Of a stretch of DNA of 5,348 nucleotides, positions 1 to 5,348 are shown one piece after another. The notes beneath the pieces are model-generated. The model searched no databases. It was not told the DNA's origin and saw nothing but the letters and a program-made list of their open reading frames with translations. Position 1 is the stretch's first letter. Each line of letters opens with the position of its first letter. A program made the translations under genes and the position numbers. The stretch is from the IMG/VR virus record IMGVR_UViG_2698536533_000009; one strand, written 5' to 3'. Source of the DNA: a virus. Lineage: Duplodnaviria; Heunggongvirae; Uroviricota; Caudoviricetes.

Positions 1-347
1 ATCAGATGGCTGCTTAAAAAAAGAACAAATGGTAGTGTCCGCTATTGCCAGTACACCTCAATCTGTCGATAGAAGGTTGGTTCGTGAGGAACGGAACACA
101 ATTCACCTGCAATGGTTTTCAGCGTTAACTCTGGTAATAAGGCGATGCCTAATCCCTGTCGAATAAAATTCATCGCTGTATCCACCTGATTAAATTCACA
201 TTTTATCTGCTGGGCGCACTATTAGTGGTCGTGGCTGGTGGAATCTATGCGCTGCAAATGAAGGGCAAAAGCGGTGTCACACTAGTAGCGGCAAAAGAAA
301 TTCATTAATACGACACGTTTCATTAAGATTTTCCTCAGGTAACCACC

Positions 348-387: not shown

Positions 388-763
388 ATGGCAGTTTCAG
401 CAAAGTACGACGAATTTAATCACTGGTGGGCAACAGAGGGCGACTGGGTTGAAGAGCCTAACTATCGCCGTAATGGTATGAGCGGGGTGCAATGCGTCGA
501 GCGCAACGGCAAAAAGCTGTATGTAAAGCGCATGACGCATCATCTGTTTCATTCCGTACGTTATCCGTTCGGCCGACCAACGATTGTCCGTGAGGTTGCG
601 GTAATTAAAGAACTGGAACGGGCCGGTGTCATCGTGCCGAAGATCGTTTTTGGTGAAGCGGTGAAAATTGAGGGTGAATGGCGCGCGTTGCTGGTGACTG
701 AAGATATGGCGGGGTTCATCAGCATTGCTGACTGGTATGCCCGGCATGCAGTATCGCCCTATT
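388..763 (+). CDS. inaA: InaA, acid-inducible protein of the Kdo/WaaP-like kinase family; 5' partial (first 125 codons), truncated by the N-run
   Basis: ATG at 388 with AGGG just upstream; translation MAVSAKYDEFNHWWATEGDWVEEPNYRRNG... is recognised as the N-terminus of E. coli InaA (216 aa from memory). The reading frame runs straight into the N-run at 764, so the C-terminal ~91 codons are not visible. Convergent with yfaE, as in E. coli. Confidence 0.85.
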
Positions 764-977
764 NNNNNNNNNNNNNNNNNNNNNNNNNNNNNNNNNNNNN
801 NNNNNNNNNNNNNNNNNNNNNNNNNNNNNNNNNNNNNNNNNNNNNNNNNNNNNNNNNNNNNNNNNNNNNNNNNNNNNNNNNNNNNNNNNNNNNNNNNNNN
901 NNNNNNNNNNNNNNNNNNNNNNNNNNNNNNNNNNNNNNNNNNNNNNNNNNNNNNNNNNNNNNNNNNNNNNNNNNNNN
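764..977. other. Masked or unsequenced gap: 214 consecutive N
   Basis: Directly seen: uninterrupted N from 764 to 977. It interrupts inaA on the plus strand and yfaE on the minus strand. Confidence 1.
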
Positions 978-1122
978 GTCGGGTGCGACAGGAGCCGCAG
1001 TAACCTTCGCGGCACTGGTACTCAACCGCAACATTGTGGGATTCCAGCGCCGCCAGAAGGGAAGGGTGTTCATCCTGGCACAGCAGTTGTGTGCCAGTGA
1101 TGCGCAGGGTAACGCGGGCCAT
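978..1122 (-). CDS. yfaE: YfaE, 2Fe-2S ferredoxin associated with ribonucleotide reductase; N-terminal 48 codons visible, 3' end lost in the N-run
   Basis: Minus-strand ATG at 1122..1120; translation [48 protein letters not shown] matches the N-terminus of E. coli YfaE (84 aa from memory), including the CxxxxCxxC part of the 2Fe-2S ligand motif. The start ATG shares nucleotide 1122 with the nrdB TGA stop (minus strand reads TGATG). Confidence 0.85.
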
Positions 1123-2252
1123 CAGAGCTGGAAGTTACTCAAATCGTCGGTGTCCACTTCCGCGTCAATCTGCCCGACCAGATAAGAACTGACTTCCACT
1201 TCCTGCGGAGCAACCTGCACGTTATCAGACACCAGCCAGGTGTTGATCCACGGGATCGGGTTGGAGCGCGTCTGGAACGGCAGATCCAAACCGACTGCCT
1301 GCATGCGGATATTGGTGATGTATTCAACGTACTGGCAGAGAATATCTTTATTCAGACCAATCATCGAACCGTCACGGAACAGATAATCCGCCCAGTCTTT
1401 CTCTTGCTGTGCCGCCTGGACAAACAGGTCATAGCACTCCTGCTTACATTCTTCGGCAATTTCCGCCATCTCCGGATCATCCGCGCCGCTGCGCAGCAGA
1501 TTCAGCATATGCTGAGTACCGGTCAGGTGCAGGGCTTCATCGCGGGCAATCAGGCGAATAATCTTGGCGTTACCTTCCATCAGTTCGCGTTCTGCAAAGG
1601 CAAAGGAACAAGCAAAGCTGACGTAGAAGCGGATCGCTTCCAGCGCGTTAACGCTCATCAGGCAGAGATACAGTTTTTTCTTCAGCTCGCGCAGGCTAAC
1701 GGTTACGGTTTTACCGTTAACGGTGTGGGTGCCTTCGCCCAGAAGGTGCCAGTAGCTGGTCATTTCGATCAGTTCATCGTAATAGCTGGAGATCCCTTCC
1801 GCACGTTTCTGGATCTGCTCGTTGGTGACGATATCGTCAAACACAACAGACGGATCGTTAACGATATTACGAATGATATGAGTATAGGAACGGGAATGAA
1901 TCGTTTCTGAGAACGCCCAGGTTTCGACCCAGGTTTCCAGTTCCGGAATAGAAATAAGCGGCAATAGCGCCACGTTCGGGCTACGACCCTGAATGGAATC
2001 CAGCAGCGTCTGATATTTCAGGTTGCTGATAAAGATGTGTTTTTCGTGCTCCGGCAGCGCCTGGTAATCTATACGGTCGCGGGAGACGTCAACTTCTTCC
2101 GGACGCCAGAAGAAAGAGAGCTGCTTTTCGATCAGCTTTTCGAAGATGTCATATTTTTGCTGATCGTAGCGAGCCACGTTGACCGGCTGACCAAAGAACA
2201 TCGGTTCTTTGAGCTGATCATTTTTCGTCTGTGAAAAGGTGGTATATGCCAT
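1122..2252 (-). CDS. nrdB: Ribonucleoside-diphosphate reductase 1 beta subunit (R2, di-iron tyrosyl-radical protein), 376 aa
   Basis: Translation [54 protein letters not shown]...[10 protein letters not shown] is recognised as E. coli NrdB. True start is the ATG at 2252..2250 (78th codon of the track ORF), preceded by AGGA at 2263..2260 with a 7-nt spacer. Stop TGA at 1124..1122. Length 1131 nt = 376 codons plus stop. Confidence 0.97.
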
Positions 2253-2277: not shown

Positions 2278-2477
<200 letters not shown>

Positions 2478-2485
2478 TCTCAATA

Positions 2486-4771
2486 TCAGATCTTACATGC
2501 GCCGCTTTCGCAGCCATCGTCCTGGATTGACGGTACCAGATCGTCCTGCGCGTCTTCAGCGCCGTCACGGGTGTTCTGATAATACAGCGTTTTGACCCCG
2601 AATTTGTAGGCGGTGAGCAGGTCTTTCAGCAACTGCTGCATCGGCACTTTTCCTGACGGGAAACGTGACGGATCGTAGTTGGTGTTAGCAGAGATCGACT
2701 GATCGATAAATTTCTGCATGATACCTACCAGTTGCAGGTAGCCATCGTTACCCGGCATTTCCCACAGCAGCTCATAGGCGTCGTGCAGGTGCTCGTAGTC
2801 CGGCACCACCTGGCGCAAAATACCGTCTTTCGACGCTTTGATGCTGACGTAACCGCGCGGCGGTTCAATACCGTTAGTGGCGTTAGAGATCTGCGAAGAG
2901 GTCTCGGACGGCATCAGGGCAGAAAGCGTAGAGTTACGCAGGCCGTGCGTTTTGATTGATTCACGCAATGCTTCCCAGTCGTAATGCAGCGGCTCATTAG
3001 CGATGGTATCCAGATCTTTCTTATAGGTATCGATCGGCAGGATCCCTTTCGCGTAAGTGGTTTCGTTAAACCACGGGCACGCGCCTTGCTCTTTCGCCAG
3101 CTCATTAGAGGCTTTCAGCAGGTAATACTGAATGGCTTCGAAGGTTTTATGCGTCAGGTTGTTGGCGCTGCCGTCGGAGTAGCGTTTACCGTGCTTCGCC
3201 AGGTAGTAAGCGAAGTTGATCACACCAATACCCAGCGTACGACGACCCATCGCTCCACGTTTGGCGGCCGGGATCGGGTAATCCTGATAATCCAGCAGCG
3301 CGTCAAGTGCACGAACCGCCAGAATTGCCAGCTCTTCCAGTTCATCCAGGTTATTAATTGCGCCCAGGTTGAAAGCAGACAGCGTACACAGCGCGATTTC
3401 ACCGTTCTCGTCGTTGACGTCGTTCAGCGGTTTGGTCGGCAGGGCTATCTCCAGGCACAGGTTAGACTGACGCACTGGCGCGATGGCCGGATCAAACGGG
3501 CTATGGGTATTGCAGTGGTCAACGTTCTGAATATAGATACGACCGGTAGACGCACGTTCCTGCATCATCAGCGAGAACAGCTCAACGGCTTTCACACGCT
3601 GCTTGCGGATGCTGTCGTCTTTCTCATATTTGGTATACAGACGTTCAAACTCTTCCTGATCGGCGAAGAACGCGTCGTACAGCCCCGGTACGTCGGACGG
3701 GCTGAACAGGGTGATATCTTCACCTTTCAGCAGACGGGTATACATCAGTTTGTTGATTTGTACCCCGTAGTCCATATGACGCACGCGGTTGCCTTCCACA
3801 CCACGGTTGTTTTTCAACACCAGCAGGCTTTCCACTTCCAGATGCCACATCGGGTAGAACAGCGTTGCCGCACCGCCGCGCACACCGCCCTGAGAGCAGG
3901 ATTTCACCGCTGTCTGGAAATGTTTGTAGAACGGAATGCAGCCGGTATGGAACGCTTCACCACCGCGAATCGGGCTACCCAGCGCACGAATACGCCCGGC
4001 GTTGATGCCGATCCCGGCACGCTGGGAAACGTATTTAACAATCGCGCTGGAGGTGGCGTTGATGGAATCCAGGCTGTCACCGCACTCGATCAGTACGCAG
4101 GAGCTGAACTGACGAGTCGGGGTACGCACGCCGGACATGATTGGCGTCGGCAGCGAAATTTTAAATGTGGAAACCGCGTCGTAAAAACGCTTCACATATT
4201 GCAGGCGCGTTTCACGCGGGTAGTTCGAGAACAGGCACGCGGCAACCAGAATATAAAGGAACTGGGCGCTCTCATAGATTTCGCCGGTCACGCGGTTCTG
4301 TACCAGATATTTGCCTTCCAGCTGCTTAACGGCAGCATAAGAGAAGGTCATATCACGGTCGTGATCGATAAACGTGTCCATCTGCTTGAACTCTTCTTCC
4401 GTGTAGTCTTCCAGCAGATGATTATCGTATTTGCCCATCTCGACCATTTTCACCACGTGGTCGTACAGCGCAGGCGGCTCAAACTGGCCGTAGGCTTTTT
4501 TACGCAGGTGGAAGATCGCCAGGCGCGCGGCGAGATACTGATAATCCGGCGCATCACGGGAGATCAGGTCTGCGGCAGCCTTGATAATGGTTTCGTGGAT
4601 GTCAGAGGTCTTGATACCGTCATAAAACTGAATGTGGGAGCGCAGCTCGACCTGGGAAATCGAAACGTTATGCAGTCCTTCTGCCGCCCAATCCAGAACG
4701 CGATGGATTTTGTCGAGATTGATGCGCTCTGTGCTACCGTCGCGCTTTGTCACCAGCAGATTCTGATTCAT
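2486..4771 (-). CDS. nrdA: Ribonucleoside-diphosphate reductase 1 alpha subunit (R1, catalytic and allosteric subunit), 761 aa
   Basis: Translation [33 protein letters not shown]...[11 protein letters not shown] is recognised as E. coli NrdA, with the N-terminal ATP-cone region and the C-terminal redox-shuttle cysteine pair (CESGAC). ATG at 4771..4769, stop TGA at 2488..2486; 2286 nt = 761 codons plus stop. AGGT lies 9 nt upstream of the ATG. Confidence 0.98.
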
Positions 4772-4950: not shown

Positions 4951-4993
4951 GGCTTTCGCGCACCTTAGGTCAGACAAGGTGTCCGGGAAAGTC
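4951..4993. promoter_or_regulatory. Imperfect inverted repeat upstream of the nrdAB promoter
   Basis: Arms GGCTTTCGCGCACC (4951..4964) and GGTGTCCGGGAAAGTC (4978..4993) are partially complementary (GGTG...GAAAG core), ~43 bp overall. It resembles in size and position the upstream inverted repeat described for nrd regulation; identity not verified. Confidence 0.35.
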
Positions 4994-5348
4994 AATGGGA
5001 AGAGAAAAATTTGTTAAAAATAACTGTTCGGCGATTTCTTGAACGGCAGAATAGGTTGGATAAATTGATATAGATGGTTTATTAATCTTTTTGTTAATGA
5101 TTGCAAAAATTGATCTAAGCACGAGTCATCACATAATCTGATGTATCAGTTGTGGTCAATATATAAGCGAATGTAAGCGATTGTTGATGTCGAAATGGTT
5201 GTTTTCTATTCGGTTATTGTTAAATGCGAAGCCATTTTGTTAATTTACCTTATATTATAAGAAAATTATTCATTACTATAATTTAGTTTAAATATAACTG
5301 GTATCCCTTAAGGTTATTAACTTGAATTATGACGCACTGATATTATTC
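4994..5348. promoter_or_regulatory. AT-rich upstream regulatory region of nrdAB (probably a divergent intergenic region; no gene start visible)
   Basis: Strongly AT-rich with A/T tracts and a recurring TTGTTAA-like motif (around 5013, 5091, 5217, 5238). No ORF of meaningful size. In E. coli this region carries Fis and other nucleoid-protein sites and separates nrdA from the divergent yfaL gene; that is from memory, and the sites themselves are too degenerate to place by eye. Confidence 0.5.

What the first reader, a model, noticed from the sequence alone, without database searches (positions are those of the whole stretch)
764..977. N-run is too short to contain the missing parts of inaA and yfaE
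Visible sequence gives 125 codons of inaA up to 763 and 48 codons of yfaE from 1122 down to 979. If the proteins have their E. coli lengths (216 and 84 aa, from memory), the hidden segment must hold ~276 nt of inaA plus ~110 nt of yfaE plus any spacer (~50 nt in K-12), i.e. at least ~385 and probably ~440 nt. The N-run is 214 nt. So either the gap length is arbitrary (collapsed or masked), or this locus has a deletion or rearrangement at the convergent inaA/yfaE junction. It is the only part of the window I cannot read, so anything non-canonical would be here.
Basis: partly seen in the sequence, partly recalled or inferred. Interest (0 to 1): 0.5.

Follow-up and report, generated by a model that had tools for sequence, protein, structure and literature searches.

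The report
Assembly gap of arbitrary length
The 214 unread bases are a placeholder shorter than the real DNA: Shigella sonnei genomes identical to every readable base of the window carry an ordinary 437-base stretch there, so nothing unusual is hidden.

Summary
Positions 764-977 are the window's only N-run (214 N). They are too short to hold the missing 3' ends of inaA and yfaE. E. coli genomes carry 438 nt between the same flanks (275 inaA, 53 spacer, 110 yfaE), and other enterobacterial species carry 391-638 nt.

The window is Shigella sonnei. Bases 1-59 are an IS600 end joined to a truncated LysR-regulator remnant. This junction is absent from 5,426 complete E. coli genomes. Its 43-aa ORF is named as S. 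sonnei by its sources.

Nine public assemblies carry that junction. Five match all 5,134 readable bases at 100%, a sixth matches everything its contig reaches, and three differ only by 1-3 single-base gaps. In place of the N-run, six hold the same 437 nt and three hold 436 nt. That stretch contains the inaA 3' end with the known S. sonnei 1-nt frameshift (InaA 208 aa, Q3YZX1), a REP hairpin spacer, and an intact yfaE 3' end (84 aa).

The N-run length is therefore not informative. It is most likely a scaffolder's underestimated gap, or a mask that does not preserve length. There is no sign of a deletion or rearrangement. The source record itself was not recovered, so a private 223-nt deletion in that isolate remains possible (about 5%). 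Interest is very low.

The parts
1..59 (.). Terminal end of an IS600-like (IS3 family) insertion sequence. The window starts inside it.
   Evidence: bases 1-76/86 match the ends of annotated IS600-family elements in E. coli genomes. Bases 60 onward match the LysR-regulator remnant. No complete E. coli genome carries the junction. Read from the sequence and recalled, not tested: bases 41-59 look like the IS3-family terminal inverted repeat (reverse complement TGAGGTGTACTGGCAATAGC).
42..173 (-). 43-aa remnant ORF of a LysR-type regulator that runs into the IS600 end. It serves as a lineage marker.
   Evidence: this exact product is listed in 1,155 blocks of the collection; its sources name it 'transcriptional regulator [Shigella sonnei]' (A0A2Y6ECC7_SHISO).
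388..763 (+). inaA 5' part (codons 1-125 plus 1 base), lipopolysaccharide-kinase family.
   Evidence: It is 100% identical to S. sonnei loci L045/L046/L049/L052/L053. PF06293 is on record for the full-length product in the sister loci.
764..977 (.). N-run of 214. It stands in for about 437 nt: the inaA 3' end (frameshifted, stop after codon 208), a REP-hairpin spacer, and the yfaE 3' end.
978..1122 (-). yfaE 5' part (1 base of codon 49 plus codons 48-1), 2Fe-2S ferredoxin. Its ATG overlaps the nrdB stop.
   Evidence: The sister loci encode an intact 84-aa YfaE with PF00111.
1122..2252 (-). nrdB, class Ia ribonucleotide reductase beta subunit (376 aa).
   Evidence: this exact protein is listed in 86,221 blocks.
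2300..2477 (.). REP/BIME cluster between nrdB and nrdA: two direct repeat units about 88 nt apart.
   Evidence: The length of this spacer varies among E. coli.
2486..4771 (-). nrdA, class Ia ribonucleotide reductase alpha subunit (761 aa).
   Evidence: this exact protein is listed in 42,815 blocks.

Best explanation
The N-run is a placeholder whose length does not equal the length of the DNA it replaces. The most likely origin is a scaffolding gap in a short-read draft assembly of Shigella sonnei, with the gap size estimated from read pairs and underestimated. Less likely, the data provider applied a mask that does not preserve length. The DNA actually present is the ordinary S. sonnei inaA/yfaE convergent junction, 437 nt long. 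It holds the last 83 codons and stop of a frameshifted inaA (a 1-nt loss in an A5 run gives a 208-aa product), an intergenic spacer with one REP palindrome that folds into a strong hairpin, and the last 36 codons and stop of an intact yfaE. Shown: the N-run coordinates, the arithmetic, the S. sonnei identity of the flanks, and the content of the stretch in sister genomes. Inferred: that the source isolate has the same content, and that the Ns come from a scaffolder.
For: The N-run is verified. The expected stretch is 438 nt in E. coli. Among the 65 E. coli rows listed, the record span across both flanks was 1312-1326 nt against 1101 nt in the window, apart from one record split into two places. 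In other Escherichia, Citrobacter, Pseudocitrobacter and Enterobacter species representatives the equivalent stretch is 391-638 nt, never near 214. Window 1-59 is an IS600 end, and this junction is in no complete E. coli genome. The 43-aa junction ORF led to nine assemblies. Five of them (L045, L046, L049, L052, and L053 as far as its contig reaches) match the readable bases at 100%, L048 matches apart from one single-base gap, and L047, L050 and L051 differ by 1-3 single-base gaps. Six hold an identical 437-nt stretch between the flanks and three hold 436 nt. Reconstruction gives InaA 208 aa and YfaE 84 aa. Sources name the junction ORF and the 208-aa InaA as Shigella sonnei (Q3YZX1_SHISS, Ss046), and the 208-aa InaA is seen on at least 1,000 contigs. 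A flank-gap-flank pattern with a short gap matches none of 53 fetched loci, while the same pattern with the normal gap matches 32. The short-gap pattern does match the window's own N-run, which shows the pattern works, and it finds nothing in JGI metagenomes. Sister draft L049 carries isolated single Ns, so unresolved N positions occur in other public drafts of this lineage. The contig-length histogram for the junction ORF (787 blocks at 2-5 kb, 307 at 5-10 kb, 28 below 2 kb) shows that this locus usually sits on a small contig in drafts of this lineage, which fits a 5.3-kb scaffold starting in IS600. From my own knowledge: naive read-pair gap estimators underestimate gaps that are comparable to the insert size (Sahlin et al. 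2012 Bioinformatics 28:2215, listed as reference 17 in PMC4262078).
Against: The source record itself was never found. Exact scans of genome contigs, viral contigs and metagenome contigs were negative, and look-ups of ORFs read through the N-run were negative. Neither the origin of the Ns nor the isolate's true sequence was observed directly. The gap edges lie 275 nt and 110 nt from the only repeat in the stretch, the REP. A repeat-induced contig break therefore does not explain the gap, and a coverage dropout has to be assumed. The GC content of the hidden stretch is unremarkable at 48%. If the tool provider's masks preserve length, the 214 would be real.
Confidence: 0.9

Rival explanations
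1. The N-run preserves length, and this isolate carries a private deletion of about 223 nt inside the hidden stretch. Such a deletion would truncate inaA and/or yfaE at their convergent 3' ends, as further gene decay in Shigella.
For: The length mismatch itself. The tool descriptions say some stretches in the collections are masked as N, which could be one-for-one. In this lineage inaA is already frameshifted, and inaA is hit by IS1 in another strain (L007), so the gene can evidently be lost.
Against: Every sister genome with identical flanks has 436-437 nt. No fetched locus and no metagenome contig has the short spacing. The 208-aa InaA is seen on at least 1,000 contigs. The deletion would have to fall entirely inside the masked stretch while all 5,134 flanking bases stay 100% identical. 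yfaE belongs to the nrdAB-yfaE operon and is intact in every E. coli and S. sonnei locus whose called genes were listed, apart from three indel-bearing assemblies.
Confidence: 0.05
2. An insertion sequence sits at the junction together with an adjacent deletion (IS-mediated deletion from inaA codon ~126 to yfaE codon ~49). The assembler could not cross the IS, and the scaffolder bridged it with 214 N.
For: S. sonnei is rich in IS elements. The window starts in IS600, and the sister loci show several IS copies nearby. IS1 insertion in inaA occurs in another strain.
Against: No IS-end sequence is visible at either edge of the N-run. Both edges continue the reference sequence exactly, whereas short-read contigs normally run a k-mer length into a repeat, as the window's left end does. 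An IS of 0.8-1.3 kb would be even less compatible with a 214-N estimate. No sister genome shows it.
Confidence: 0.03
3. The Ns were put in deliberately by the data provider to hide a stretch, with a length unrelated to the original.
For: The tool descriptions mention masked stretches. The source record could not be found in any searchable collection.
Against: The edges fall inside codons and match no feature boundary. A simple mask would normally preserve length. The practical conclusion is the same as for the best explanation: the length is not informative and the content is ordinary.
Confidence: 0.1

Closest known systems
Scaffold (assembly) gap of estimated size in a short-read draft genome
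   Same: An uninterrupted run of N joins two stretches that are colinear with, and in the same orientation as, closed genomes of the same lineage. The length is not a conventional fixed value (100 N), which suggests an estimate. The scaffold starts inside an IS copy, as draft contigs of IS-rich Shigella do. One sister draft carries isolated Ns.
   Different: The break is not at a repeat boundary. The estimate is off by 223 nt, about half the true gap. The record's own gap annotation could not be seen.
Shigella sonnei inaA-yfaE-nrdB-nrdA locus (for example Ss046; InaA Q3YZX1, 208 aa)
   Same: All 5,134 readable bases are 100% identical to several S. sonnei assemblies, including the IS600/LysR-remnant junction.
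   Different: Only the 214 N in place of 437 nt.
E. coli K-12-type inaA/yfaE convergent junction
   Same: Same gene order, same 438-nt budget and same REP-containing 53-nt spacer.
   Different: The S. sonnei version differs by 5 substitutions and a 1-nt deletion that frameshifts inaA after codon 196. Readable flanks are 98-99% identical to E. coli.

Membership tests
Assembly/scaffold gap with uninformative length | Uninterrupted run of N with no other ambiguity codes | tested here: met
   a single run, 764-977, 214 N. Every other base is A, C, G or T.
Assembly/scaffold gap with uninformative length | Flanks are colinear, in the same orientation, and adjacent to the same stretch in finished genomes of the same lineage | tested here: met
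   both flanks match L045/L046/L049/L052 at 100%, in the same orientation; they lie 437 nt apart.
Assembly/scaffold gap with uninformative length | N count differs from the true distance in sister genomes | tested here: met
   214 against 437 (436 in three indel-bearing assemblies). E. coli has 438.
Assembly/scaffold gap with uninformative length | Source record annotates the run as assembly_gap with estimated length and paired-end linkage | not testable with these tools
   Source record not recovered.
Genuine deletion or rearrangement at the inaA/yfaE junction | Real sequence of about 214 nt joining the two flanks in at least one genome | tested here: not met
   The short-gap pattern matches 0 of 53 loci and nothing in metagenome contigs. 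The normal-gap pattern matches 32 loci. The source isolate itself could not be tested.
Shigella sonnei chromosome | Lineage-specific IS600 junction and identical sequence across the locus | tested here: met
   (the sources' own names: Shigella sonnei, Ss046, 4822-66).
InaA (PF06293 Kdo/WaaP-type lipopolysaccharide kinase family) | Sequence identity to annotated InaA over the readable part | tested here: met
   The 125 readable residues differ from E. coli InaA WP_000301049.1 at one position (R119 for Q). The reconstructed 208-aa protein equals Q3YZX1_SHISS. PF06293 is on record for the product.
YfaE (2Fe-2S ferredoxin, PF00111) | Sequence identity to annotated YfaE, and the first three Cys of the cluster motif in the readable part | tested here: met
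   The 48 readable residues are identical to WP_000135040.1 and include C-x4-C-x2-C. The C-terminal Cys residues lie under the N-run and are present in the sister genomes.

The most novel reading that the evidence does not exclude
The N-run preserves length, and this particular S. sonnei isolate has lost about 223 nt at the convergent junction. The loss would truncate inaA further and/or remove the C-terminal part of YfaE, including the last cluster-ligand cysteines. That would be a fresh step of reductive evolution touching the ribonucleotide reductase maintenance ferredoxin.
Probability: 0.05. Interest if true: 0.2.

Novelty: not a real feature. Interest (0 to 1): 0.03.

Why it matters
It matters only for data quality. 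N-run lengths in draft or masked sequence should not be read as true distances. Here the hidden content can be recovered from sister genomes that are identical in every readable base, and it is the ordinary, already catalogued S. sonnei inaA/yfaE junction. No new biology follows.

Tried and rejected
1. An exact 24-mer next to the N-run found nothing in genome contigs. Typical E. coli have a SNP in the first 5 bases of that pattern, and the source is not in that collection.
2. A lineage-specific 30-mer found nothing in viral contigs or metagenome contigs.
3. Look-ups by the exact NrdA and NrdB proteins returned generic E. coli at 96-99% DNA identity. These proteins are too widespread to identify the lineage.
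4. A search with the InaA N-terminus in genome contigs gave 23 species representatives. None contained an N-run and none was the source. The loci were still useful for the range of junction lengths.
5. Look-ups of the two ORFs that read through the N-run, with X residues, were not on record.
6. Literature searches for the assembly accessions found nothing.
7. I looked for a repeat that could explain a contig break. The hidden stretch shares only a 19-nt REP core with the nrdA-nrdB BIME cluster. A repeat-caused gap was rejected because the gap edges lie 110-275 nt from the REP.
8. An Rfam scan of the hidden stretch in L045 gave only sub-threshold naRNA4 hits at the REP hairpin (recalled, not tested: naRNA4 derives from REP elements). 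The terminator scan found nothing beyond chance.

Full report
**Observation.** The window has a single N-run at 764-977, 214 N long. On the plus strand an ORF starts at 388 and is readable for 125 codons. On the minus strand an ORF starts at 1122 and is readable for 48 codons. RefSeq annotation of the closest complete E. coli (strain PT62, locus L001) names these inaA (651 nt, 216 aa) and yfaE (255 nt, 84 aa). The two genes converge, with a 53-nt spacer, and are followed by nrdB and nrdA. Ungapped alignment puts the last readable base of the left flank at L001 1964 and the first readable base of the right flank at L001 2403. The N-run therefore replaces 438 nt in E. coli: 275 of inaA, 53 of spacer and 110 of yfaE.

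**How constant is this distance?** All 5,426 complete E. coli genomes hold both flanks. In the 65 rows listed (best and spread), the 1,101-nt query corresponds to 1,312-1,326 nt of record. One record was split into two places. In 20 further loci found through the exact NrdA and NrdB proteins, yfaE is 84 aa and the spacer is 53 nt. inaA is 216 aa in 19 of them and is interrupted by IS1 in the other. Among 23 species representatives found with the InaA N-terminus, the equivalent stretch is 438 nt in several Escherichia, 537 and 638 nt in two others, and 391-448 nt in Citrobacter, Pseudocitrobacter, Enterobacter and Intestinirhabdus. Nothing comes near 214 nt. That is expected, because the two gene ends alone need 385 nt.

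**Where the window comes from.** No complete E. coli genome is closer than 98.7% over the whole window or 99.3% around the junction. The first 59 bases match no E. coli locus at this position. They are the end of an IS600-like IS3-family element abutting a truncated LysR-regulator gene, and no complete E. coli genome carries this junction.

The 43-aa ORF across that junction (window 42-173, minus strand) is listed in 1,155 blocks of the public assembly collection. Nine loci were returned. Five of them (L045, L046, L049, L052, and L053 as far as its contig reaches) are 100% identical to the readable bases. L048 is identical apart from one single-base gap. L047, L050 and L051 differ by 1-3 single-base gaps. 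The sources name the junction ORF 'transcriptional regulator [Shigella sonnei]'. The window is therefore Shigella sonnei.

The contig-length histogram for this ORF (787 blocks at 2-5 kb, 307 at 5-10 kb, 28 below 2 kb) shows that the locus usually sits on a small contig in short-read drafts of this lineage. That fits a 5.3-kb piece that begins inside IS600.

**What lies under the N-run.** In six of the nine sister loci the stretch between the flanks is the same 437 nt. The three indel-bearing assemblies have 436 nt. Compared with E. coli it has five substitutions and one lost A in an A5 run. The lost base frameshifts inaA after codon 196 and gives a 208-aa product. That exact protein is on record as Q3YZX1_SHISS, 'pH-inducible protein [Shigella sonnei Ss046]', on at least 1,000 contigs. 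yfaE is intact at 84 aa, including the C-terminal cysteines.

The intergenic spacer holds one REP palindrome. It folds into a hairpin of -37.2 kcal/mol (z = -5.1 against shuffles). It gives only sub-threshold Rfam hits to naRNA4. The terminator and promoter scans show nothing above chance. By established knowledge of REP elements, such a hairpin between convergent genes most plausibly acts as a transcript-end stabiliser or terminator. This is inference and not new.

**Direct test for a short junction.** I used a pattern made of 20 nt of the left flank, a variable gap, and 20 nt of the right flank.
- With the short gap (205-234) it matches the window's own N-run, which serves as a control.
- With the short gap it matches none of the 53 fetched loci and nothing in JGI metagenome contigs.
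- With the normal gap (428-457) it matches 32 loci, including all nine S. sonnei loci.

**Explanation.** The length of the N-run is not the length of the DNA it replaces. The most likely origin is a scaffold gap in a short-read S. sonnei draft. One sister draft (L049) carries isolated Ns, so unresolved N positions occur in other public drafts of this lineage. The window starts inside a repeat, as draft contigs do. From my own knowledge, naive read-pair estimators underestimate gaps that approach the insert size, because only unusually long inserts span them (Sahlin et al. 2012, listed as reference 17 in PMC4262078).

What is not explained is why the assembler failed here. The hidden stretch has ordinary GC content (48%). 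Its only repeat is a 19-nt REP core, and the gap edges lie 110-275 nt away from it. A coverage dropout has to be assumed. A provider's mask that does not preserve length would lead to the same conclusion.

**What remains open.** The source record was not found. Exact scans were negative, as were look-ups of the ORFs read through the N-run. A private 223-nt deletion in this one isolate, or an IS with an adjacent deletion, therefore cannot be excluded. Three points argue against these:
- identical sister genomes all have the full stretch;
- no IS-end sequence appears at the gap edges;
- the 208-aa inaA allele is carried on at least 1,000 contigs.

I put these rivals at about 5% and 3%.

**Comparison with what is known, and verdict.** The locus is the catalogued S. 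sonnei inaA-yfaE-nrdB-nrdA region. The 'feature' is an artefact of how missing sequence is represented. It is not a real biological feature, and interest is about 0.03.

Noticed in passing
window 1-59 and 42-173 (minus strand): The window begins inside the end of an IS600-like IS3-family element inserted into a LysR-regulator remnant. The resulting 43-aa ORF is a Shigella sonnei marker: it is absent as a junction from 5,426 complete E. coli genomes and listed in 1,155 blocks of public assemblies.
   Followed up: yes
under the N-run; L045 7160-7786 (minus strand in the locus): In the S. sonnei sister genomes inaA has lost one A from an A5 run. This frameshifts the last ~20 codons and gives a 208-aa InaA (Q3YZX1_SHISS) instead of 216 aa. 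The readable part also has R119 where E. coli has Q.
   Followed up: partly
L045 7084-7159 (equivalent to the middle of the N-run): A single REP palindrome lies between the convergent inaA and yfaE. Its hairpin folds at -37.2 kcal/mol (z = -5.1), and it gives only sub-threshold Rfam naRNA4 hits.
   Followed up: partly
window 2300-2477: A REP/BIME cluster lies between nrdB and nrdA, with two direct repeat units about 88 nt apart. The length of this spacer varies among E. coli genomes (88, 146, 189, 233 nt). Logan contigs of 2,526 nt carry close variants of the junction ORF, and their length would fit a break at this cluster (inferred, not checked).
   Followed up: partly
L007 10545-11314 (GCA_040813155.1): An E. 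coli strain with IS1 inserted in inaA, with a 9-bp target duplication at window-equivalent 451-459. The gene is evidently dispensable in some lineages.
   Followed up: no
window 1122-2252: nrdB DNA falls into two deeply diverged allele groups among E. coli. The window is 99.3% identical to PT62-type genomes over the yfaE-nrdB stretch but about 96% identical to many others, while the protein is the same or differs only at A364S. This suggests old recombination at the locus.
   Followed up: no
L041, L042, L044 (genome contigs species representatives titled Shigella flexneri / E. coli): These representatives align to the window with many small indels: 9-23 gaps per 0.7-1.3 kb, and InaA identity of only 39-73% by tblastn. 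They look like error-rich assemblies that became separate 'species' representatives.
   Followed up: no
window 4990-5348: An AT-rich stretch (32% GC over the last 400 nt) lies upstream of nrdA, towards the yfaL remnant. One sister draft contig (L053) ends here at window-equivalent 5187, so draft contigs tend to break in this region as well.
   Followed up: no
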